A stretch of DNA of 64,000 nucleotides from Eledone cirrhosa (Eukaryota). Made by a program: the position numbers and the translations under genes. Positions 33,988 to 64,000 of the stretch are shown one piece after another. Position 1 is the first letter of the stretch; each line of letters begins with the position of its first letter. Location: the NCBI GenBank assembly GCA_964016885.1, contig OZ024744.1, positions 57,970,001-58,034,000 of the forward strand, written 5' to 3'. The notes under the pieces are model-generated. The model had not been told where the DNA came from and did not search any database. It was given only the letters and a program-made list of their open reading frames with translations.

Positions 33988-35543
33988 TATATATATATAT
34001 AGTGTGTAACGTTTCTCGAAATATTTACGTCTACGTTCACAGATTGATTTTTTTAGGTTCAGAAGATCCCGTTATGGGTGAAAGCAGCGATTCTTCGCTT
34101 AAACTTTAATCTGTTATTTTAATATATGTATATATAATTATATATTCGTGTACAGATATTTTTGCATACACAATAACAAAATATAAACAAACGTATTTAT
34201 TTCACGAGGCTCAATAAGGATAAATATATATCAAATATATAAGAACCCTAGAGCAAATATTGTTCTCATTGCTGACGAGGCAGAAGGGGATATACACGAT
34301 TGGCTGAAGAAGGACGAGACTGTGTTAGTAGTACGACCAATGGCTGCTATCACACCAACAGCAGCAAAAACAACAACAAAAAAAGAGAGGGAACGCAATT
34401 ACATGCTTTTGAAAAATCTTAATGGAAAATTATTTGCCTATTCACCCAAGGCGACTTCACTTTTTATTAGGACTTCTGCATCAATTGGTGAACATACGAC
34501 GAAACTGTTTCAGAAAGGAGGAATAAACATGCCAATCTATGTTTAGAATCCCGAGCAATGCCGGGCCATTCTGCTAGTAATGTACTAAAACTGTCAAACA
34601 TTGTCAACATTTCCTGTGTTTCACAGACTTTCACAAGTTGAAATAATATACGCCTCAAAGAATAGCTGCCTCTTATTTAGACAAAGCAGACAGACAGTGG
34701 ACACACACATGCGCGCGCGTGCACCCACACACACATATACATTCGTACACACACATATATAATGATATATATTGATATATGGACACTCTAATCCATGCAT
34801 AAATATAATATATGGACAGAAACGTGTAAACATATATGTACAGCTACGTAGACATAAGTAAAAAAAAATACACATATATGTAATATAATTAAATACGACT
34901 GAGATTCTATATTTTTAGATGTTCCAACATGAAGAATATTACTGGGACATTCTCATCAAAACATCCCTCAAATGCAAAAATAAAATAAAAATTCACCCTC
35001 AAATTAAATCCTATGGTCTTTTGAGGGAGAAAAGTAAGAAGACACAGAATGATGTAGTTCCTGATATAGAAAATGACAGGATGCGTAAGGTTAGAATGCC
35101 TTTGATCAGAGATGTGCATGGAAAAATAGATGTTAAACAGTTATTATGTGTGATAGACACTTGCTTGGCTGTATGATTGAGGAGTTTGTTTCACAACCAT
35201 GTAGTTTCTGATTCACTCATACAGCGTGGCATCTTGGGTAAGTGTTCTCCACTGGTAGCCTCGAGTTGGTTGATGCTTTATGAATGAAATCTGGTACATA
35301 GAAACAGTGTGGAAGATTGTTATATTTGTATATATAAACAATTTATGTAACATCAGCATCTTTCTTAATGTTATTATCATATATATGTTGAAATGACTCT
35401 TTTCCTATTACCCAATCTACTTCCCTAAGTATTGAGTACTCTGGTGTGTTATGGTCCACCTGCTATCTTACCACATCCTCTTTGTTTTATATATATATTA
35501 TATAAATTAACAAAGAAGCCTTTAATACATTAAAAATCTTTAT

Positions 35544-35588
35544 TTGCTGACAATGTTTCGTCCCATTAATTAGGACTCATCAGAGCAA
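35544..35588 (-). ncRNA. Canonical minimal type I hammerhead ribozyme
   Basis: Minus strand: ttgct-CTGATGA-gtcc-taattaatg-ggac-GAAA-cattg-TC-agcaa; GUC cleavage triplet. Confidence 0.85.
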
Positions 35589-36001
35589 GGAAAAGACAAA
35601 AAAATATCATCGGCTAGAACAAGCCAAAATTCAGAAGAATAGCGAATGGATATTTAGGAAAATTATCATGGAAAGACATGTTAAACCTAATAGGGTGCAT
35701 TGTTTTACTCTAATGCACTCAAGTATTTTTATCTTATATATGTATATATATATATATATATGTCATTATCATCATCATCATTGTTGCTTTAACGTTCACT
35801 TTCCTTGCTAGCAAGGGTTGGACGGATCTACATAGATCAAGTCAGCACTTCACAGGGTGCACAAGTACGTTCTCTATGCTGGATGCCCTTCCTATCACCA
35901 ATCACTTTACAGCATGTACTGGGTGTATTTATCGTGTAATTTACCAACACTTGGGAGGGTGTCATGCTAGCGTGCAAGATAGACGTTAATCGATGATGAT
36001 G

Positions 36002-36027
<26 letters not shown>

Positions 36028-36032
<5 letters not shown>

Positions 36033-36478
36033 GATTGGGGCTCTGAAATAGCGATGTATACATGAATGTATGTATAGTATATTTGGCAATATACCGTATG
36101 TTTAATTAAAAACATTTTGAAGACCTTGCGCTATCATTTTTAAAGTAGTGACTATGTCACTTACTTCTTTTTATTTTCGGCAAAAGAAGTAAGAGAAGCT
36201 AACAGAGTCTGATTCGCACTGTTGGTGATCATCAGCGCAACGTACCGAAAATCATAGAAGCTGGATTCTTATAGAATTCCAGTAATAATCAGGAGCTGAT
36301 TATACAGAGTGATTGCTGGTCCAACAAAAATTAGGTATTAGGATTGGTGCTCTGAAATAGCGATGTATACATGAATGTATGTATAGTATATTTGGCAATA
36401 TACCGTATGTTTAATTAAAAACATTTTGAAGATCTTGCGCTATCATTTTTAAAGTAGTGACTATGTCACTTACTTCTT

Positions 36479-36482
<4 letters not shown>
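36028..36482. repeat. ~140-bp direct repeat pair between TA runs
   Basis: ~36028-36168 matches ~36337-36478; a partial copy lies at ~44840-44910. Confidence 0.8.
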
Positions 36483-36520
<38 letters not shown>

Positions 36521-36560
36521 GAAAATGAAGAATCAGTGATGCATCGGAACTCAATTTATT

Positions 36561-36653
36561 ACGTATTACAATTGTTTCCCCGGCGAACAGCTCGAGGTGC
36601 GATCTGTGTGTGGATCAAACCTGACTCTGGATTCACAGGTTCCTCAGACACGT
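36561..36653 (-). ncRNA. HHR with ~61-nt extended stem II
   Basis: Inverted copy of 44126-44218. Confidence 0.75.
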
Positions 36654-37076
36654 CTAGTGATTTCGGAGCAAATCCTCTTTCTCTAGGGTTCCGACCTTAC
36701 GAGTCTATATCATCTACCTTCATCCTGTTTGCGCGTCCTTGGATTGGTCACTGATTTGTGACATCATCATAGTTCTGACAACTGGAAGCAGCCCACTGAC
36801 CATCAAGGCGTAAGCTGTCACTCACTCACAGTCCCATCGGCAAAATTACTCCCACACGCACACACACGCGCACCGAGAGACACAGACAGAATAACTTGCG
36901 TGCTTGCCTTCACACATGTACCTACAGAAATATATACACATATCTATATATACACACACATACACAGTCACACAAATATACACATACATGCACACACACA
37001 CACATATGCATGTATGCACATATACACACACACACACCTGTATATATACATACATACATACACACGCATACATATA

Positions 37077-40000
37077 TGTAGCGACGTGGTTAGTCAGTCT
37101 AGTCAATACTTCTGATCAGATCCGAGAATAGCCCTTACAAGAACTCTTATCGCATACGGTCTGATCAGATCTGAAGGTAGCCCTTAAAAGGACTGTTGTC
37201 GCATATAGCCCTTAAAAGAACTGTTGAGGATGGACAGACGAAAGCACAAGTTGAAAGGACGAAGCAAGGCGAGATGTAAATTCGATCATCTATTTATTTT
37301 CACATGAAGCGACGATACGAGGTACAAGGCGTGTGTGAGTGACAAAGCGTGGCAGAGTAAAGGAACAACGATGCGCTAGCTAACACTGCCAAAAGTCGAC
37401 TGGCGAAGTGTTAGGGACCACTCTATTTATACAGGAACAATCCTTTGTTGTTTAGTCGATGTGTAGGCGTTTATTCTGGTAGGTTCTAAGGGTTCTGTTG
37501 TTTCACGTTGAAGTAGCTAGCTAACAGGTAGATGGCGCTGTATATTTCACAGATGTTATTTCCGGTGGCTGTACATTAGCCCCCTGCCAGTTCTTTTGTA
37601 CAACAAAAGAGCGAAATATCGTATAGTAATGGGCCAGTGGTGCATTTGTCATGACAATAACCCCAGGAGTGTCCAGCACGTTGTGAAATTTTGTGATCTT
37701 CGAGTACAGGACAGAGTCGATGTTGAGATGATATGGCAAGATGTGTGTGTCAGGAAGAGAAAAAAGAAATAAACTATAAAATGACTTTGACCAGATTTAT
37801 GCAGGCGTGATGAATGAGCCTGTTGCAATTTGGGTTGAGCTGCCTGTGAATTGCGTGACAAAAAGTCTAACTGGGCAGTGAAAATAACCGTAATGTGTGA
37901 ACTGAATGGCCGTAAGCATGCTGCCTAAAAGTAACAGCTTGCTCCACAGCATATGACTTGAGCGAATTCATGTGGTAAAAAAAAATAGCGAGGCATTCTC
38001 GAGCTATTGAGTGAATGTGTACGTGAAAAAAGAAGGCCAATGTTTTGAGGATGCGATTTGTGAAATGCGTGATCAAAGAGAAAACATTTTGTAGTGTAGG
38101 AGTTAAAGGGACACAAATATCTATTGCTGAACCAAATATCTATTGTATGAACCAAAAGGTGAAACAAATGTGGTTTTGTAGTGTGCATGAAAAACAAAAT
38201 ATGTACACGCCTTGTATGTATATAAAAATTATGGCAATTACACAATCAATGTTACAGAACAAGAAAAATACAAATTTTGCAAAACAAGAGAGAGAAGAAG
38301 AAAAAAATGTTATACACAATGTTTGTTCTTAAATAGTGTTTGTAATAGATAATGTTCATAATAAATAATGTTCTTCGTGACATGAGCACATGGTCACTAA
38401 AAATTGCAATTGTTCAAGCAGAAAGTTCATTGTATTTGAAACTGGAAATAGGAAACACAAGAAAAATGGAAATGTTTTGCACGAAGACTGATTAATAAAC
38501 TCACTTGAGTTTAACGGTAAGTCACATATTATGCCAACTTTGCGGGCCAATGGACGCGTCGTCCGCTTCTCGTGATTGGAGATGAAACAGGTGGCTCGCT
38601 GGGACAGAAATCTGTTGGAGTTTCTAGTGTAGAGACTGTAACAGTATCCATGATGGCTTTTTTTAATCTGTCCACGCTGACAGAATTCTGTTTACCATCT
38701 AGATCGAGAATAAAATATTTCGGATATTTTTTTAGAACACGATAAGGGCCAGAATATGGAGGTCGAAGATGAGCTGAGATGGTGTCGTTTCGAACGAAAA
38801 CGTGTGTCCAATCTTTAATGTCTGAAGGTACGTGTGTGGCCGTGTTCTGTTGACGGGTGCTTGCAGGAGCAAGGTGAGACATATATTGTCGAAGACGGTG
38901 TACGTATGATCCTGGGTCTGGAACGTCCTGAGGAGAGATGGGAGCAACCATCTGACCAGGTAGAACCAGGGTGGTGCCGTACACTAATTCTGCAGGTGTG
39001 TGTCCGAATTCCTCCTTAACGGTAGATCGAATGCCCAGAAGGATGAGTGGTAGGTATTCAAACCAGTGGGTCTTGTCTGGATATGCTTTTATTGCAGCTT
39101 TCAATTGGCGATGGAATCTTTCCACGAGACCATTAGCTTGCGGGTGATAAGCTGTCGTGCGGATGTGTTTACATCCTAACAGGCGAGTCAGTTCCCTGAA
39201 GAGGTGGGAGTCAAATTGGCGTCCTCTGTCCATTGTTATCTTCGCTGGGGCGCCATAACGTGATACTCAGTGTAAAACCAAAGTTTTAGCGACTGTTTCT
39301 GCTGAGGTATCATTTATGGGAAAAGCCTCAGGCCAACGAGAAAATCGATCGATGCAGGTGAGCAAGTGTGTGTAGTTCTGTGATGGTGGTAGAGGTCCGA
39401 CGATGTCGATATGCACATGATGAAAACGTGCATCAGGTTGCGCGAATGTGCCGAGTGGAGTTTTGATGTGTCTGTGGACTTTGGCTTTCTGGCAGGCAAT
39501 GCAGCTCCTGGACCAGTCGCGCACGTCCTTGTTAATGTTAGTCCACACAAAACGAGCAGAGATGAGTTTCTGTGTAGCCCGGATTCCCGGGTGAGAGAAG
39601 CAGTGTAAAGCAGAAAAAACTTGTCGACGATGCATCTGTGGTACGTACGGTCGTTCATGACCGGTAGAAAGGTCGCACCAAATTTGTCCCGGAGAAGAAG
39701 GAATGGGAACTTGCTGAAACTTGAGAGATGGCGAATCTCGGAGTTTCATAAACTCTTCGTCAGTCTCTTGGTCAGCTGCGATTTGTTGAAGGTCGATGCC
39801 TGAATGCACATGTATTGCGTTCAGCTGGATTCGGGACAGGGCGTCGGCTGCTACGTTGTCTGATCCCTTGATATGCCGAATATCAGTTGAATATTGGGAG
39901 ACAAAATCCAGGTGTCGGAGTTCTCTCGGTGAATGTCGATCAGGTTTGGTATGGAACGCATAAATTAATGGTTTATGGTCCGTGTAGATCACGAAATCTG

Positions 40001-42321
40001 ATCCTTCGAGCATGTGCCGAAAATGCTTAACCGAAAGATAGGTTGCCAAGAGATCCCTGCCAAAGGTACTGTATTTCGTTTCTGCCGGTTGCAACCGCTT
40101 AGAAAAGAAGGATAAGGGTTGCCACACGCCGTCGACATGTTGTTGTAGAACGCCTCCAACCCCTGTGTCTGATGCGTCCACTAGCAGCGAAAGAGGAGCG
40201 CCAGATCTGGGAAAAACGAGCATGGAAGCGTTTGCCAACATTTCCTTCAAGCGGTTAAAAGATGTTAATCCTTCCTCGTTTAGAGTGATCTCTTCGTTTT
40301 TGCGAGTCCGGTTACGAAGAAGGTCCGTGAGGAGTCTGGCTGCGTCGGAACAATGAGGGATAAAACGCCTATAAAAATTCACCAGACCGAGGAATTCACG
40401 CAGTTTCCGAAGTGATGTAGGTGCGGGAAAACTGCGGATAGTTTCTACTTTCTCGGGAAGTGGACGAATGCCGTCTTTATCGATGATGTGCCCGAGAAAG
40501 GACAGTGAAGGAACGCCGAGAAGGCACTTGCTGGGGTTGATGATGATACCGTACTCAGCCAAACGTCGGAAAAGGAGATCTAAATGCTTCTCGTGTTCAT
40601 TCTCGGACGCACTTGCTACCAGTACGTCGTCAATATACGCGTATACGAAGGTATCTGGTTATATGCACGCACCAGATCTACCTTGGAAAAGATACATGCG
40701 CCTTGCAGAGAGGCAGAAAAATCGTGCAGGTGAGGTACAGGGTAATTATCGGGCACTGTAGAATTGTTAAGTGCACGATAATCCCCACATGGTCGTCAAC
40801 CATTCTCGTTTTTTTTTTGGAACAAGGTGTAGGGGTGCAGACCAGTTGCTGGAGGAAGGGCAAATGATTCCGAGGTCCAGCATGTATTGGAACTCCTGCT
40901 TGGCGATTCTCAATCGGTCTGGAGGCAGTCTCCTTGGTCGGGCAGCTGTGAGTGGTCCCTTTGTCTCGATGTGGTGCGTGACACTATGCTTAATGGGACC
41001 ATCCTTAAATACCGGGCGAGTGATGTCTGGGTATTTCTGGAGAATGCCGTTGTACCGCGAAGGCTCTGACTGGCAAATTACAGGGCTCACTGTGGATTGC
41101 GTGGTAAATATACCTCTCACAATGAGGTTTGTGGTGGTGTCGATAAGCCTCCGGTTCTTCATATCCACCAGAAGGTTGAAGTGGTGGAGAAAATCGGCTC
41201 CTAGGATCGGGGTCGGCAGGTCTGCCACGACGAACACCCATTGAAAACGACGCCTCAGGCCTAAATTGAAGGTCAGAGACTTCTCCTCGAAAGTCGGAAT
41301 TGACGATTGGTTCACTGCCTGCAGAAAGGACGGGGTTGGGTGTCTTTTTCCCGAGATTAGTGAAACCGGAATAACACTAACCTGGGCTCCTGTATCCATG
41401 AGGTAACGGATGCCTGTCGCCTGGTCGTTAATAAAAAATAAACGACTTTTCTTTTCAGTACCAGGGGTGAACGTCGTCGCTAGACCCTGGGTGGCATTCC
41501 GGAAAGAGCACGGGGCTTTGCACTTAGATGCCTGTGCGCCGAAATTTGTGTGATACCAGCAGAGGTTGCCAGGCACACGATTTTGACTGGAACTACTGGA
41601 TCTTTGACTGTGAAAAGGCCTGGATCGATTGTTGCTGCGTCGCCGGTGTGTTTGAAATGTCAGCTTCTCTACTTGATTTGAGAGGGCTTTAATTTGACCA
41701 GCCCGCTCTCTCATCATAGCCCGCAGCTCTGAAATCTCGGCCTCTGTCGTTTGTAACATGTCCATGTTGATATTTTCTTAGGTGCTGTCTGGTTGCGCGT
41801 TCGACTCACGTTCGGGTCACCAATTGTAGCGACGTGGTTATTCAGTCGAGTCACTACTTCTGATCAGATCCGGGAATAGCCCTTAGAAGGACTCTTATCG
41901 CATACGGTCTGATCAGATCTGAAGGTAGCCCTTAAAAGGACTGTTGTCGCATATAGCCCTTAAAAGAACTGTTGAGGATGGACAGACGAAAGCACAAGTT
42001 GAAAGGACGAAGCAAGGCGAGATGTAAATTCGATCAGCTATTTATTTTCACATGAAGCGACGATACGGGGTACAAGGCGTGTGAGTGACAAAGCGTGGCA
42101 GAGTAAAGGAACAACGATGTGCTAGTTGACTCTGCCAAAAGTCGACTAGCGAAGTGTTGGGAACCACTCTATTTATACAGGAACAATCCTTTGTTGTTTA
42201 GTCGATGTGTAGGCGTTTATTCTGGTAAGTTCTAAGGGTTCTTTTGTTTCACGTTGAAGTAGCTAGCTAACAGGTAAATGGCGCTGTATATTTCACAGAT
42301 GTTATTTCCGGTGGCTGTACA
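37077..42321 (-). mobile_element. Ty3/Gypsy LTR retrotransposon, CsRn1-type, internally deleted
   Basis: LTRs TG...CA at 37077-37575 and 41825-42321; TSD TATA; PBS TGGTGACCC; PPT-like GGCAGGGGGC; Gag Cx2Hx9Cx3C, protease DTGA, RT YIDD, RNase H DAS/TDHKPL/ADALSR, integrase HHCC and GPY. Confidence 0.95.
38529..41765 (-). pseudogene. Gypsy gag-pol with frameshift, stop and an RT deletion
   Basis: ORFs 40767-41765, 39267-40562 and 38529-39233. AYNQIP is joined directly to FVYAYIDD near 40650, so the MPFGL region is missing. Confidence 0.9.
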
Positions 42322-42339
42322 TATACATACCTATACACG

Positions 42340-42724
42340 CCAACAACAACCCTGAGTACCTTTTTGATCTCTATGTGTCTAACACACGTGGACATGCCTA
42401 CAAAATCAGAAAACAGCACAGCTCCCATGACTTTCGTAAATATTTTTTCACGCTCAGAGTTGCTGAAGCATGGAACAAACTGCCTGCGTCAGTTGTTAGC
42501 TGTTGGGACACTGCATCCTTTAAAACACTCATGCTCCCGAAATTCGCCAAAACTACACCTGATGTACCCCTTCCACACACATGCACATGTGTATATCATG
42601 ACTCATGCACTGTTCATTTTCCTGACGTTTGTACATTACCCTATGTACTATACATACACTTTTGATGAGTTGTAGTGCACCTGAGCACTGTACACAATAT
42701 TTTCATTATTATCATTATTATTAT
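42340..42724 (+). mobile_element. CR1-type LINE 3' end
   Basis: TRGHAYKI...RKYFFTLRVAEAWNKLPASVV followed by a (TTA/TCA)n tail. Confidence 0.8.
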
Positions 42725-44125
42725 ACATACATACACATATACACACAAACAAATACATATATATATATATACCTACACACACGCACACGCACACATATAT
42801 ATATATACACATATATATATCCCCCCTCCCTACATGTGTGTATATACATACACGCGTAAATATATATATACATAAATATGTGTGCTTACATATGCATATA
42901 CATATGTGCTTACATATGCATATACATATACATACATATGCATATACATATACATACATACGTGCGCGTACTTTTACATGTACATGCACACACATACATC
43001 CACCTATACATATATACCCATGCACACACGCATATATGCACTCACACCCAGACTGATGTACGCGTATACACGTACTCTCATATATGAGAATAAACAGTAT
43101 AAAAAATACAGAAATATAAGAAAAATATACAAGATATAAAATCATATAAAAAATATATAAGAAATATAAACTGTATTAAAATATGTGGAGGGTGTATACA
43201 GCAAGCACATGGTGTTGTCCATAGAAATGTTACGTGAGGGAAATACGTGCAAGGTACGAAAAAGTACATATGGGATTGCGACGGTTAATGCATGCACCAT
43301 CTCACATGACGGTATATAGGTTCGTTGACACACTTTGATGTACATGTTGACAGAGTTGGCATTATGGTGCTAACGTAGATTAAACAAAATTATATATGGG
43401 GAGCTCATAGGAATAATGTAAAGGGTATACCCAGAACATATATAGAAAATACATACAGAATATATAAAAAATATATTTAAAAAAATATATAAAGAAAAAT
43501 ATATTTAAAAAATACACATTGGTTTGTACATGAAAACATACATAAGGTGTTACATAATGGAATGTGTGGAGAAGATATACACACTACTTAAAAGATACAT
43601 ATGTAGGGAGTGTGGGAGAACAGCCTATGTTACTATGGGTGAAATAGAGTGCCTTATTGATGTATGATACGCGATTGATTATACTCATGGTAATTGAGCC
43701 ACCGTGTCCTGGCTCCTGCGACGTCGTTGCTTAAGATGAGGTGCTGAGTCTAATGGGCAGTATAGATTGTGTCGATTTACCCCACAGGGCATACATAATC
43801 ATCAAGGCATGGTGTCTGTTCCCTTGGACCCGCGCCGCCACCCAGACTGACGTCTGCTTCCCCGTATGCCTTTAGTTTGGGCCATCCGGTGGTGTCCATG
43901 TGGAGAGTGTGCACCTTCTCTGATGTCTGCATGCCATGATAATCTCCGATTTCAGGTTGACTGCATCACGCCTTGACGTTCAGTGGGCTGCTTCCAGTGG
44001 TCAGAACTATGATGACGTCACAAACCAGTGACCAATCCAAGGATGCGCAAACAGGATGAAGGCGAATGATATAGTCTCGTAAGATCGGAACCCTAGAGAA
44101 AGAGGATTTGCTCCGAAATCACTAG

Positions 44126-44218
44126 ACGTGTCTGAGGAACCTGCGAATCCAGAGTCAGGTTCGATCCACACACAGATCGCACCTCGAGCTGTTCGCCGGG
44201 GAAACAATTGTAATACGT
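44126..44218 (+). ncRNA. HHR with ~61-nt extended stem II and palindromic stem III
   Basis: acgtgt-CTGAGGA-a-[cctgcgaa...aggttcgatc..gatcgcacct...ttcgccggg]-GAAA-caattg-TA-atacgt. Confidence 0.78.
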
Positions 44219-44259
44219 AATAAATTGAGTTCCGATGAATCACTGATTCTTCATTTTTC

Positions 44260-44317
<58 letters not shown>

Positions 44318-44405
44318 CGAAGGAAATGTGGTAAGGAACCAGGTGGACCATAACGCACCAAAGTACTCAATACTTGAGGTAGTAGAGTGGGTAATAGGAA
44401 CCAGT

Positions 44406-44443
<38 letters not shown>

Positions 44444-45052
44444 GGAAAAGTAAACAAGATAAAGAAAAATTTACCTATTCACTTTCATGTCCCGACTGCA
44501 GTTTTGAACACTGTCAGAAATCTCCCTCGTGGTTCAATAAAAAATTTGGCTGAATTGAACTGCTTCTTCTAACACCCATGTTACTTGCCATTGTCCACCT
44601 ATTGCTGCTCTTCTGTTGACCGTAAATCACGTAATAATTCTTCCATTCAAAATAATCGCTGATTGTGGTTAACTCAGAAGATTTTTTTCTTGACTGAGAA
44701 ATTCCCAGATGAGTTGAGATTTCTCACAGGGTTCAAAACTGAGGTTACTCAATGAAAGTGCAGTCGAGACATCAATGTATGTCTATGTACATCTATACTT
44801 GTGTGTGTATATATATATATATATTTATATATATTTGTGTTGGAGCTCTGAAATAGTGATGTATATATGAATGTACGTATTGTATATTTAATAATATAAT
44901 GTACGTTTTAAATAAACATACAGTATATTATTAAATATACAATAACGTTTATAAGAGATATCAACATGAATGGACCTGTTATTTTTATCTAAAGACATTT
45001 TTTTCCAATTCCAACCCGCCCGTCCCCTCAATCTATCTTATTTCTCATTCTT

Positions 45053-45088
45053 TCTTCTGATGAAGGACTAGCGTCCGAGACGTTAAGA
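45053..45088 (+). ncRNA. Minimal PLE-type HHR with mutated core (GAGA)
   Basis: tctt-CTGATGA-a-ggac-tagc-gtcc-GAGA-cg-TT-aaga. Confidence 0.6.
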
Positions 45089-45801: not shown

Positions 45802-46019
45802 AATACCTAATAAATTCCTTTTTTAAAAAAAAGCACTTTCATTTTATATTCATCCTTTCTACATTTTCTCCGGAATATAATTTATACTCGTTGAGCAAAC
45901 CTGCACGTACGCTGTTCATCTCTAACGTAACGATATATTATCACTACATTATTGATAACCTGAAATTTTATATATATATATATATATATATGTACATAAA
46001 AGGTAAACACGTATACATT

Positions 46020-46838
46020 TAAATCAGGACAAAATTTTACTGTAAAAAATCACTTCACTTGCTCATCAAAAAATCTAATTTATGCCATTAAATATAAAGG
46101 ATGCAATGAAGATTATATAGGACAAACTAAACTCACACTCAGAAACAGAATGACAGTTCATCGCCAACAATTACGAGATCCAACCACGAGACAGATACCA
46201 CTAAGTGCATATCTAGACATATGCGCAAGTAATAAGACACCCAAATTCCAAGTCTTCCCATTTTACCTTTGCGCTAACAATACAACAGGACAAATGCGAA
46301 TAAATAAGGAAAATATGTTTATTCAAAAATATAGACCAACATTAAATATGGTTTAATATACATTATGTCAACACCATAATATGACATACACACACACACA
46401 CACATAACACCTTCTACTTTAGAAAATAAAAACCCGAACTAAATAAACCTTAACATACGTTTGCACTGATAATACAACAGCAAATACGAATAAGTAAGGA
46501 AAATATGTTCATTCAAAAATATTCCTACTAAAGGAATCACTTTCCTACACACACACATACACACACACAATATATATATATATATATATATTCTCCTCAT
46601 CTTAACATGCTAACCATACTCCCACACACATAACACCCATACACACACATAACAACCTCCACACCCACAACTCCCTCCCCATTTCAACTAATAGAACCAC
46701 TTTCCTACACACATATATATACACACACACAAAATATATATTCTCTCCATCTTAACATACTCGCACACACACACATAACACCCATATATACACACACACA
46801 ACTCCCTCCCCCATTTCTACTAATAGAATCATCTTCCA

Positions 46839-58780: not shown

Positions 58781-59314
58781 AGATGATGCATGACATACCC
58801 TGACATAGTAAATGGTTAAGATTCAGTCATGGTAGTGAGTAATATATGATAAAACTCAATATTTATATACCTTAATATTGAAAACATGAAAAAAACCCAC
58901 ATATAATACATATAATACATATAATACATATAATAGAGAGGGTACGTGTGAGAAAGCTTAAAAGAATACAAGGCAGCAATATAACTGTTAAAGATTCAAA
59001 TAATTTAAATTACTGAAGAAAGAGGAAAGAAAAGAAAGACATAGAGGAAGAAACAGATGAGGGGATAATATAGCTAGTAGGAGCCTAGAAAACAAAAGAG
59101 AGTTGATTACAGAGAGAGATAGATAAAGAGGAATAACTTTTATAATGTAATAATATAGGGAGATATTAAATTAGAACAACATTTGGGCTTAGCTTTAGGA
59201 AAACGAAAAAATTCAATTCATTGAATTATTGAAATATCTAAAAATATTCATCAATCGGAATTTTAAATATAATTGGGTGTATTCATATGAAGGTTAATAC
59301 CAAGTCTTTAGACA

Positions 59315-60069
59315 ATTATTTATTGAGGAAGACCTGCTAGTTAGACTGATTGCTCCATCTAAATCGGATATTGGAGTAATCAGTAAGAATATTATTGATA
59401 GAATTCTACCTATTCTGAAATTGAGGTCTAAATTGAGCTTGTGGAAAGACACCAATGAAGTGATTGATTGGTTTAAAAATATAGATAAGAAAAACCACAA
59501 ATTCATCCAAATGGACATAGCAATCTATTACTCTTCCATTACACCTAACCTATTAAATAAGGCCTTATCCCACGCTTACAAACATACAGATCTAACTACG
59601 GATGAAATCGATATCATATTAACTGCTAGAAGAACTCTAATTAATTTCAACAATGAATATTGGACCCGCTCTGATAGAAATAGAAACTTTGACATTACCA
59701 TGGGATCATCGGTCTCAGCGCAAGTCACGGATCTTCTGGAGATTTTCATCTTAAATATGGTAAATAGAAAACTGCCGGAGATTACCGGTGGTTTATATAG
59801 GGACGATATTTTATTTACGGTTGTCAAACACAGCAATACAGAACTAAATAGGGTTAAGAAAACTATAATTGAATTCTTTAAAAATTACGACCTTAAATTA
59901 GAGGTTGAAAGTGGTACCAAAATAGTTAATTTCCTTGATGTTACCCTTAACTTAAACTCTGGTTTTTATTTCCCTTTCCATAAGCCCAATGAAAACTTAA
60001 ATTACGTTAGTTATTACTCTAATCACCCTAAATCTGTGAAAAATGCAATTGTTAATAGTGTACAGAAAC
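59315..60069 (+). pseudogene. Inverted duplicate of the PLE RT core
   Basis: Protein is identical to 62841-63764 except G>E (LLGIF versus LLEIF); truncated after NSVQK. Confidence 0.9.
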
Positions 60070-62079: not shown

Positions 62080-63870
62080 TTAGTGTTTTTTCCTGACATT
62101 TTGCGAGACTTTGAATGTAGACAAAGCTTTATGGAGGCAGTTTGAGAATAATTCACTTTTTTTGTTAATTGAGTTTTCATAATTAGTAATTATTAATAGG
62201 GTCTCCATAGTACAGAGGTTGCAGTTAGGTGATATTGACGAATTCGAGTAGATTCTACTATTACATAGCTTCGTCCAAAAAATCGAGTATTTTAAATTTT
62301 TGTCTTTTAATGACCATATACGTTGTGATAAAGAAGTCGAAGACTTCCTATTAGGATTCGAAAAAGAGCGTTTGTGATTCCCAAATCTCGATTTAAATGT
62401 CGAAGAAGTTGCCCCTATGTAATTGTATGTGATGTTATTTGCTTTTACGGTGCATTTATACACCAAATTTCTATCTAGACAATTATTTTGCAGAGGGCAA
62501 TCTGGTTTATTTCTACAATTACATTTCGATTTATTATTATTATAATTTATATTAACACTATTATTACTTCAAAATGTTCTATTGATAGTGCTTATATTGC
62601 TGTTAATGTTATTCATAGTATCAATATTGTTAGTGTTATTATATTCATTATTGTTATAAGTATGCGGATTCTGGTTTAGAATTCTACTATTTAATTTAGC
62701 GATGTTTTTGGTCATATTCATAGTTGTAGAATAAGAAAGCTTAATTGTGTGTCTATTAAATATGGAACGGTATTTATGTTGAATAGGGAAGGAATTATCT
62801 AAAGCTTTAAAGAATAGATTAGCGAGTGGTGTTTTTATTGCTACAGAAGCAGGGGGGGGGGGGGTAGGGACCATATAACTGATTTAGTTCTGGTTTTTTC
62901 CCCCAATTTATTCACAGTACAGGTGTTTGAATTATAATTTTTAGAATTTCGTTTATACATGTCAGTCATATTATTATTTTTATCAGGATTAAGATTCAAA
63001 TTATTATTGTCAATATATTCTATATTATATTTATAACCTGCCTTTCTTAGCGCATCATTGTAATATCCTGCTTTTTCATCAAATATGGATTTATTAGCAG
63101 ATATTCTAGTTATGCGTTTCTGTACACTATTAACAATTGCATTTTTCACAGATTTAGGGTGATTAGAGTAATAACTAACGTAATTTAAGTTTTCATTGGG
63201 CTTATGGAAAGGGAAATAAAAACCAGAGTTTAAGTTAAGGGTAACATCAAGGAAATTAACTATTTTGGTACCACTTTCAACCTCTAATTTAAGGTCGTAA
63301 TTTTTAAAGAATTCAATTATAGTTTTCTTAACCCTATTTAGTTCTGTATTGCTGTGTTTGACAACCGTAAATAAAATATCGTCCCTATATAAACCACCGG
63401 TAATCTCCGGCAGTTTTCTATTTACCATATTTAAGATGAAAATCCCCAGAAGATCCGTGACTTGCGCTGAGACCGATGATCCCATGGTAATGTCAAAGTT
63501 TCTATTTCTATCAGAGCGGGTCCAATATTCATTGTTGAAATTAATTAGAGTTCTTCTAGCAGTTAATATGATATCGATTTCATCCGTAGTTAGATCTGTA
63601 TGTTTGTAAGCGTGGGATAAGGCCTTATTTAATAGGTTAGGTGTAATGGAAGAGTAATAGATTGCTATGTCCATTTGGATGAATTTGTGGTTTTTCTTAT
63701 CTATATTTTTAAACCAATCAATCACTTCATTGGTGTCTTTCCACAAGCTCAATTTAGACCTCAATTTCAGAATAGGTAGAATTCTATCAATAATATTCTT
63801 ACTGATTACTCCAATATCCGATTTAGATGGAGCAATCAGTCTAACTAGCAGGTCTTCCTCAATAAATAAT
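62080..63870 (-). pseudogene. PLE RT-GIY-YIG ORF, 5'-truncated, frameshifted at the G-run (~62851) and near 62570
   Basis: Consecutive ORFs 62841-63764, 62569-62874 and 62080-62466 join into one PLE protein. Confidence 0.88.
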
Positions 63871-64000
63871 TGTCTAAAGACTTGGTATTAACCTTCATAT
63901 GAATACACCCAATTATATTTAAAATTCCGATTGATGAATATTTTTAGATATTTCAATAATTCAATGAATTGAATTTTTTCGTTTTCCTAAAGCTAAGCCC

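What the first reader, a model, noticed from the sequence alone, without database searches (positions are those of the whole stretch)
36516..44265. Hidden PLE with inverted pLTRs whose hammerhead has a 61-nt stem II
Removing the nested Gypsy and CR1 leaves a ~2-kb element in (TA)n: inverted pLTR, last codons of a GIY-YIG, a long simple-repeat-rich UTR, then pLTR. Both pLTRs hold an intact HHR core with a palindromic CAATTG stem III and a long multi-segment stem II. The two differences between copies inside stem II are C>T changes compatible with G-U pairing. Long stem II on a minimal dimer-type HHR is unusual and would escape standard models. It may be a protein-binding or tertiary module (inference).
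Basis: partly seen in the sequence, partly recalled or inferred. Interest (0 to 1): 0.75.

Follow-up and report, generated by a model that had tools for sequence, protein, structure and literature searches.

The report
Long-armed hammerhead in Hydra retrotransposon
This is a broken, two-ended copy of a Penelope-type jumping gene whose hammerhead RNA motif carries a 62-base side arm; thousands of related copies keep a small fixed loop in that arm while two normally fixed core bases change, so the arm is likely a docking site for the element's own protein on a likely weak self-cutter, and cutting is untested.

Summary
Observation confirmed. With the Gypsy and CR1-like inserts removed, a 2.1-kb minus-strand element remains in (TA)n: inverted pLTR, last 31 codons of an endonuclease, long UTR, 3' pLTR. 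It is a 5'-truncated dead copy of an autonomous Hydra-clade Penelope-like family; ORF-bearing copies were recovered. Both pLTRs hold a type I hammerhead with a 62-nt stem II that Rfam misses. The arm is nonetheless a conserved structure. Across 24 subfamily representatives 81% of cells pair (27-39% when slid), with 11 compensatory branch changes against 1.5 expected, although no single pair passes a tree-aware test. A 2x1 AG/G loop sits 11-13 nt from the core in about 7,700 exact matches, in elements whose RT is as little as 52% identical. Core bases U4 and A6 and pair 10.1-11.1 vary between amplified subfamilies, and 69 of 72 copies span the cut site. Best reading: a weak, pair- or protein-assisted ribozyme whose arm is a protein-recognition element in the RNA leader. 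No RNA data. This scan noted long arms, U4C cores and the leader start before, on other DNA of this genome and others. New variant of a known kind.

The parts
36482..36515 (.). (TA)n target, left flank
   Evidence: sequence
36516..36811 (-). 3' pLTR of the Hydra-clade element; ends at the common family terminus about 53 nt after the hammerhead cut site
36561..36653 (-). type I hammerhead, 3' copy: core 36647-36641, stem II 36640-36579, GAAA 36578-36575, CAAUUG, predicted cut 36567/36566; carries both CpG changes and is predicted to misfold
36812..37076 (-). 3' UTR, distal part (simple-repeat rich), colinear with other copies
37077..42321 (-). nested Gypsy-type LTR retrotransposon; LTRs 37077-37575 and 41825-42321, TATA target duplication, pol frame broken near 40660-40770
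42340..42724 (+). nested 3' end of a CR1-like LINE with (ATT)n tail (label recalled; boundaries approximate)
   Evidence: no Pfam hit
42725..43871 (-). 3' UTR, proximal part (long, simple-repeat rich)
43872..43967 (-). last 31 codons and stop of the Hydra-type GIY-YIG endonuclease, with the CxH motif; 5' truncation point of the main copy
43968..44264 (+). inverted pLTR at the element's 5' end, starting from the same family terminus
44013..44036 (+). TGACGTCA and CCAAT motifs, candidate promoter elements (consensus recalled)
44097..44099 (+). inferred transcript start, 116-114 nt before the cut site; 5' ends of short copies pile up here
   Evidence: 11 of 72 ends at -116..-114, 6 of 72 in the 113 nt upstream
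44126..44218 (+). type I hammerhead, inverted copy: core 44132-44138, GAAA 44201-44204, CAAUUG 44205-44210, predicted cut 44212/44213
44139..44200 (+). 62-nt stem II arm: basal helix with A.G at 10.1-11.1 and U.C at 10.4-11.4, UC bulge, 3-bp helix, AG/G loop, middle helix, apical hairpin with variable loop
44151..44190 (+). near-invariant internal-loop motif, AGAGUC (44151-44156) opposite GAGCU (44186-44190)
44219..44224 (+). AATAAA directly after stem I, candidate poly(A) signal
   Evidence: AATAAA or ATTAAA here in 114 of 146 clan copies
44265..44317 (.). (TA)n target, right flank
   Evidence: sequence

Best explanation
This is a 5'-truncated, twice-interrupted copy of a Hydra-clade Penelope-like retrotransposon with a hammerhead motif in each pLTR, and the motif's conserved 62-nt stem II arm likely serves as a recognition site for the element's own protein on a likely weak ribozyme that is predicted to cut only as a pair or with protein help. 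Shown: element identity, anatomy, family ORF, covarying arm, fixed loop, variable U4/A6 and 10.1-11.1, and copies spanning the cut site. Inferred: (1) transcription starts in the pLTR about 116 nt before the cut site, so the hammerhead and its arm fill the 5' leader, 174-197 nt ahead of the ATG; (2) reverse transcription starts in the tail behind the hammerhead on uncut RNA, from both sides of a break in (TA)n, giving one long and one short cDNA joined head to head, as in this window; (3) because the template must stay uncut, the core tolerates weakening changes, while the arm's loop is held fixed by a partner, most simply the RT-EN protein; (4) this copy is dead: no RT, no promoter ahead of an ORF, and two hammerheads on opposite strands that cannot pair as a dimer in one transcript.
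For: Hydra motifs in family copies (against section 11 of PMC8557442). Arm structure: RNAalifold finds 13 pairs on 24 representatives, 9 with changes on both sides; 81.3% of 685 cells paired against 27-39% for slid partners; 11.1 compensatory double changes on tree branches against 1.5 +/- 1.3, maximum 6 in 200 partner permutations; alignment-free basal register 103 of 136 against 39 of 119 to 48 of 136 for shifted registers. Loop: A.G and the flanking G-C, U-A, C-G in 17 of 17 lineage consensuses, including lineages first seen by a pattern that did not ask for it; 4,313 matches at 9-16 nt from the core against 46 at 17-46 nt and 16 with a longer apex. Depth: present in pLTRs of ORF-bearing elements with RT segments 100%, 67-81% and 52-53% identical to the query, absent from a sister family at 48-49% whose stem II is 26 nt; clade support 91. 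Non-coding: ATG lies 174 and 197 nt after the cut. Core drift with the loop kept: 1,692 matches with U4C and 1,673 with a non-A at position 6, mostly CCGUCGA in two separate lineages; 0 of 21 motif copies in loci fetched by RT similarity have a canonical 7-nt core. Changes at U4 and A6 lower activity (PMC3088659). Uncut template: 69 of 72 tail-sampled copies span the cut site and none starts within 2 nt of it. Precedent: the Anolis PLE hammerhead cuts only with protein, and uncut RNA is the substrate (PMC11167929).
Against: No binding, cleavage or RNA data exist here. No single base pair passes my tree-aware G-test; the best structural pair has E 5.8 among 4,772 column pairs. The loop itself is invariant, so covariation says nothing about it, and the clan was collected by near-match to the loop, which inflates its conservation. 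Single decayed copies often do not fold this way: mean basal-pair probability is above 0.5 in 7 of 24 representatives. Unrelated families here have long arms without this loop, so length alone may simply be tolerated. Among 66 copies with non-canonical cores, 64 keep GAAA, 63 keep UH and 48 keep a palindromic stem III; catalysis is therefore probably still selected, which also fits a tertiary role for the arm. Most lineages (C, D, H, K, E, J, M, N) were not tied directly to an ORF: 1 of 80 non-AB copies had endonuclease sequence upstream.
Confidence: 0.5

Rival explanations
1. The arm is a tertiary activator: its loop docks on stem I or the A-rich strand behind it and offsets the weak core, so the ribozyme cuts well without protein.
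For: The loop is at a fixed distance from the core (11-13 nt in 144 of 146 copies). Natural core variants are thought to be offset by distal contacts (PMC3088659). G5, G8, A9, GAAA, UH and the stem III palindrome are kept.
Against: Stem I is only 3-7 bp, while the loop is about 12 bp out on stem II. The AAUAAA behind stem I also occurs in families with short stem II (8 of 24 hits with inserts up to 21 nt). Efficient cutting fits poorly with 69 of 72 copies spanning the site.
Confidence: 0.2
2. In this clade the hammerhead no longer needs to cut; the three-way junction and arm survive only as a scaffold for protein binding or translation control.
For: CCGUCGA cores amplified to more than a thousand copies in two lineages; an 8-nt core in a third; ribozyme mutants do not block insertion in vitro for the Anolis element.
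Against: The general acid and base positions G8 and G12, the C3-G8 pair, the NUH site and a palindromic stem III that changes sequence (CAAUUG, CAUAUG, CGCGCG) are kept.
Confidence: 0.15
3. The long arm is a tolerated insertion under selection only to stay paired, and the loop is conserved by descent.
For: Many unrelated families in this genome have long arms of different shape; no single pair is significant.
Against: Both loop strands stay fixed while the helices on either side and the apical loop turn over, across RT segments 52% identical.
Confidence: 0.08
4. The fixed motifs are DNA-level elements of an internal promoter, 55-95 nt downstream of the start.
For: They lie just downstream of the inferred start; D. 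virilis Penelope has an internal promoter (abstract of PMC2377424).
Against: The two motifs are complementary to each other around a 2x1 loop, inside helices with compensatory changes.
Confidence: 0.06
5. The 297-bp inverted repeats are TIRs of a DNA transposon.
For: Inverted ends in a TA target.
Against: Most copies have one pLTR with variable 5' ends; full copies have direct pLTRs around an RT-EN ORF (L062, L330, L334); the inverted part varies in length between copies.
Confidence: 0.01

Closest known systems
Hydra clade of C-terminal EN+ Penelope-like elements (Craig et al. 2021, PMC8557442; e.g. Hydra-1_Obim, Penelope-13_HM)
   Same: RWK-like, DKT, CxCX5C, CxxC and CxH motifs, no CCHH, (TA)n target, type I hammerhead near the 3' end; an inverted 5'-truncated copy is listed for Penelope-13_HM; non-canonical 10.1-11.1 (U.U) is common in File S2.
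   Different: Listed Hydra hammerheads have stem II of 3-7 bp with loops of 3-10 nt and canonical CUGANGA cores; here the domain is 55-63 nt with a fixed internal loop and U4C, A6U or insertion cores. Unit length is about 4.6 kb (L062) against under 3 kb, from a linker insertion in the ORF and a long UTR.
Metazoan PLE hammerheads, minimal and Drosophila-type (Cervera and de la Pena 2014, PMC4209133)
   Same: pLTR location, short palindromic helix III predicted to need dimers, pairs of motifs on opposite strands in truncated copies, low expected activity.
   Different: Described helix II is 6-8 bp with an extra nucleotide after A9 and a conserved G10.1-C11.1; here 10.1-11.1 is G-C in 4 of 17 lineages and A.G in the window copy.
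Poseidon element of Anolis, PAc (Frangieh et al. 2024, PMC11167929)
   Same: Works-like model: internal RT start in a tail behind the hammerhead, two termini, both strands extended, uncut RNA as substrate, protein-assisted cutting.
   Different: In PAc the ORF starts at stem II, so the motif is coding; here it is non-coding leader. Different clade.
PLE-X1_sMoe and PLE-X1_sTam hammerheads (File S2 of PMC8557442, marked as deviating)
   Same: PLE hammerheads with a stem II domain of about 50 nt.
   Different: Plant EN-less elements; a 9-bp stem with a 35-nt loop, with no conserved internal loop reported in the table.

Membership tests
Hydra-clade PLE | single ORF with PLE RT and C-terminal GIY-YIG endonuclease | tested here: met
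   RT-EN frames between direct pLTRs in L062 and L334; GIY-YIG E 0.0014, 19.3 bits, below the Pfam cut-off of 22.6; the window keeps the last 31 codons
Hydra-clade PLE | RWK motif and DKT in place of DKG | tested here: met
   RWR (variant) and DKT in L062
Hydra-clade PLE | CxCX5C linker, CxxC and CxH in EN, no CCHH | tested here: met
   read from P0001 against section 11
Hydra-clade PLE | insertion into (TA)n | tested here: met
   both window flanks; most of 30 tail-sampled copies end in (TA)n or in the longer tail
Hydra-clade PLE | placement in the published RT phylogeny | not tested
   the tree holds only loci of this genome and one unnamed outgroup; published proteins were compared by eye only
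Hydra-clade PLE | generally short, under 3 kb | tested here: not met
   pLTR-to-pLTR unit 4.6 kb in L062; descriptive in the paper, not diagnostic
Type I hammerhead ribozyme | core CUGANGA, GAAA, NUH with stems I-III | tested here: met
   both window copies; stem I has changes on both sides in 6 of 6 pairs
Type I hammerhead ribozyme | G10.1-C11.1 closing pair | tested here: not met
   A.G in the window; G-C in 4 of 17 lineages; U.U is the usual exception in Hydra
Type I hammerhead ribozyme | self-cleavage at the NUH site | not testable with these tools
   needs an assay; no RNA holder listed
Dimer-type PLE hammerhead | short palindromic stem/loop III | tested here: met
   CAAUUG 89, CAUAUG 9, CGCGCG 2 of 146 clan copies with an intact UH, plus G.U near-palindromes; two copies co-fold through it
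Non-LTR retrozyme | non-coding tandem repeats of a hammerhead unit | tested here: not met
   family carries an ORF; copies are dispersed, single or inverted
TIR DNA transposon | fixed inverted termini around a transposase or deletion derivative | tested here: not met

The most novel reading that the evidence does not exclude
One Hydra RT clade has turned its hammerhead into a ribonucleoprotein handle: the stem II arm with its AG/G loop is the element that the telomerase-related RT-EN recognises in the RNA leader, while the U-turn has been detuned in parallel (U4C, U4C+A6U, one-base insertion) to keep the template uncut. It would be a natural ribozyme caught in transition from catalyst to protein-binding scaffold, with a series of subfamilies as intermediates.
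Probability: 0.3. Interest if true: 0.75.

Novelty: new variant of a known kind. Interest (0 to 1): 0.5.

Why it matters
What hammerheads do in Penelope-like elements, and what RNA feature their telomerase-related RT recognises, are both open questions (PMC8557442 calls the function unclear; PMC11167929 narrows binding only to a 172-nt stretch). This clade offers a defined 11-nt motif, natural core variants and young ORF-bearing copies, which make both questions directly testable. It also shows that standard searches undercount these motifs: about 7,700 exact matches in one genome belong to a form on which Rfam gave no hit in this window, and the published core descriptor allows a spacer of only 7-17 nt. 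The window copy itself is an ordinary dead insertion.

Tried and rejected
Rfam: no hammerhead hit on either copy. Per-pair tree-aware G-test: nothing significant. Extra-A register with C-G closing and a bulged C, and a two-base-bulge register: the second costs about 4.6 kcal/mol more, and the symmetric register wins across lineages. Long-range pairing of the loop strand CAGAGU with ACUCUG in the tail: rejected, because the F lineage breaks it and the tail has a local partner. A splice acceptor at -116: not favoured, since ends include the A or G and no shared upstream exon is seen. A homologous arm at other spacings: not found; L274, L277 and L278 are unrelated sequence. Linking other lineages to ORFs through 3.5-kb flanks mostly failed because copies are short; RT-first sampling succeeded for A, F and G only. 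Protein database search gave one unnamed relative. PMC13725137's 'long helix II' is 6 bp, not a precedent. Lunse et al. (PMC5785218) is not held, so its variants were not seen; supplementary figures of PMC4209133 and most of File S7 of PMC8557442 were not read and could hold long-arm examples. No look-alike by sequence among earlier scan notes.
Full report
Anatomy. The window lies in a 3.0-Gb animal genome; the host was not identified. A 297-bp inverted repeat, 280 of 297 identical, bounds the finding and (TA)n lies outside both ends. Inside are a Gypsy-type element at 37077-42321 (LTRs 478 of 496 identical, TATA duplication, pol domains by Pfam) and a CR1-like 3' end at about 42340-42724 (label recalled; no Pfam hit). 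The Gypsy LTRs are more alike than the pLTRs, which fits its later arrival. The remainder is 2,119 nt. Other copies are colinear with it on the minus strand: endonuclease end, long simple-repeat UTR, then pLTR 36811->36516. The right arm is therefore an inverted second piece that starts from the same family terminus.

Family. The pLTR gave 3,220 first-look candidates and the endonuclease end 391 (only 40 of each were scored). Copy L046 has a 357-residue frame ending in a GIY-YIG domain with CxCX5C, CxxC and CxH motifs and no CCHH. L062 and L064 hold the RT with RWR and DKT motifs. These are the features given for the Hydra clade, which also targets (TA)n (section 11 of PMC8557442). The window keeps the last 31 codons. 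L062, L330 and L334 have direct pLTRs around the ORF, which excludes a TIR transposon. The ATG lies 174 nt (L062) and 197 nt (L334) after the hammerhead cut site, so the motif is non-coding.

The hammerhead. Both arms read CUGAGGA, 62 nt, GAAA, CAAUUG, UA, with a 6-bp stem I. Rfam at E<=5 gave no hammerhead hit on either. The insert folds as one long imperfect hairpin, z -3.6 for the right copy and -2.0 for the left. The two differences between the copies are both CpG transitions, which are 2.8 times more frequent than other C/G transitions in this lineage (38 of 576 against 25 of 1056, 48 copies). They carry no signal of selection, and they tip the 3' copy into a fold that traps G8 and A9.

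Is the arm conserved? A pattern that fixed only the core and the GAAACAATTGTA end gave 1,264 matches against 3 control matches, and showed divergent subfamilies sharing AGAGUC and GAGCU. Core + AGAGTC + GAGCTG gave 4,313 against 2. From the 200 loci held at that point I extracted 146 clan copies with a CUGA core, within two mismatches of the motif, and grouped them by hand into 17 lineages. Pairing the k-th base after the core with the k-th base before GAAA needs no alignment: 103 of 136 cells pair, against 39 of 119 to 48 of 136 for shifts. Position 10.1-11.1 is G-C in 4 of 17 lineages and otherwise mixed. On 24 hand-picked representatives, RNAalifold predicted 13 pairs of the arm, 9 with changes on both sides. 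My named structure has 81.3% of cells paired against 27-39% when slid. Parsimony on a tree gave 11.1 compensatory double changes in stem II against 1.5 +/- 1.3 for permuted partners. Against this: no single pair passed a tree-aware G-test (best structural pair E 5.8); the apical helix is poorly aligned in lineages C, D, M and N; and only 7 of 24 decayed representatives give basal-pair probability above 0.5 on their own. I rate the fold as real at about 0.85.

The loop. The A.G with its flanking G-C, U-A and C-G pairs is present in 17 of 17 lineage consensuses, and the bulged G in 16; the clan definition inflates this. Its distance from the core is 11-13 nt in 144 of 146 copies. Longer spacings gave 46 and 16 matches, mostly local duplications or unrelated sequence. 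Sampling by RT similarity instead (20 of 151 matches, chosen for long frames) found the arm in pLTRs of elements at 67-81% and 52-53% identity, but a 26-nt stem II in a sister family at 48-49%. The arm-bearing elements group with support 91. Lineages C, D, E, H, J, K, M and N were not tied directly to an ORF; most of them share the tail motif.

The core drifts. With the same arm, 1,692 matches have U4C and 1,673 have a non-A at position 6, mostly CCGUCGA, in an F-type and a G-type subfamily with different helices; a few of the latter matches are spurious. A third lineage has an 8-nt core. None of 21 distinct motif copies in RT-selected loci has a canonical core, one being truncated, although 7 of 66 canonical AB copies have endonuclease sequence upstream. 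Among tail-sampled relatives of the window copy, 23 of 53 read CCGAGGA and 14 CTGAGGA. U4C and changes at A6 lower activity without always abolishing it (PMC3088659 passages and section 8). GAAA, UH and the stem III palindrome are mostly kept in these variants (64, 63 and 48 of 66). The window's own subfamily has the canonical U4 and A6.

Ends of copies. Of 72 copies sampled by a tail pattern alone (the first 70 or so of 441 matches by position), 69 span the cut site and none starts within 2 nt of it. Eleven start at -116 to -114, only 6 in the 113 nt upstream of that, and 13 run past -230. TGACGTCA and CCAAT lie 84 and 65 nt upstream of this cliff (promoter consensus recalled). I infer a transcript start there. 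3' ends fall about 53 nt after the cut (52 of 72) or extend into a longer tail (20 of 72), like the two RT starts of the Anolis element (PMC11167929). AATAAA or ATTAAA follows stem I in 114 of 146 copies.

Mechanism. Taken together, the hammerhead and its arm occupy the leader between the inferred start and the RT start, uncut RNA is the usual template, the U-turn is free to weaken, and the loop is not. The simplest account is a weak, dimer- or protein-assisted ribozyme whose arm is held fixed by a binding partner, most likely the element's RT-EN (0.5). A tertiary-activator role (0.2), a non-cutting scaffold (0.15), tolerated insertion (0.08) and a DNA promoter motif (0.06) remain. The window's layout fits two cDNAs primed from both sides of a break in (TA)n and joined where short similar sequence meets at 43967/43968; this is inference.

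Novelty. Hydra elements, their hammerheads and inverted 5' copies are described. The Hydra rows of File S2 have stem II of 3-7 bp with 3-10-nt loops; one plant PLE there has a 53-nt domain. Ten literature searches found no report of a conserved 60-nt arm with a fixed loop, or of a CCGUCGA core; the library lacks Lunse et al. and most subscription papers. Long arms are common in this genome: a separate clan of about 95 nt, mostly with U4C, has 2,370 matches. Earlier notes of this scan report long arms, U4C cores and the same start-site reading on other DNA; they are unchecked AI notes and not independent support.

Papers seen: PMC4209133 parts 1-2 of 4; PMC11167929 parts 1-2 of 4; PMC8557442 abstract, passages, section 11, supplement parts 1-2 and passages; 10.64898/2026.07.22.740005 part 1 of 5; PMC3088659 passages and section 8; PMC6765202 passages; PMC13725137 abstract and passages; PMC2377424 abstract.

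Noticed in passing
window 35402-35589 and 44304-44400: A different repeat, 86% complementary arms over 97 nt, flanks the whole element; the left piece continues into a short canonical hammerhead at 35543-35589 (-), Rfam 28.8 bits. The element may sit inside an older inverted Penelope-type insertion.
   Followed up: partly
window 14086 (+), 51473 (+), 58772 (-), 50683 (-), 7737 (+), about 45058 (+): Further hammerhead-like motifs with stem II inserts of 18-36 nt; the one near 45058 has a damaged GAAA.
   Followed up: no
window 59313-60068 (+) and 62113-63872 (-): Fragments of another Hydra-type ORF in an inverted arrangement, 39-57% identical to the query proteins.
   Followed up: partly
window 46000-46356 (+): GIY-YIG endonuclease fragment of another PLE type, Pfam 28.7 bits, followed by simple-repeat-rich tandem units.
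   Followed up: partly
window 36027-36172, 36336-36481, 44808-44908: 146-nt direct repeat at 98% identity just left of the element, with a third partial copy to its right.
   Followed up: no
L046, L034, L041, L047, L048 (ORF linker): The family ORF has an insertion of roughly 200 residues after the RT, holding an (ACT)n-type repeat read as poly-threonine whose length differs widely between copies.
   Followed up: no
L004, L009, L073, L163, L196 and others, 55-120 nt after the cut site: The longer tail holds ACTCT ... GCAT(C)GAGTGCT in most lineages of the clan, able to form a local hairpin right behind the common terminus.
   Followed up: partly
L311-L320: Separate clan with a stem II of about 95 nt and mostly CCGAUGA cores, 2,370 exact matches.
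   Followed up: no
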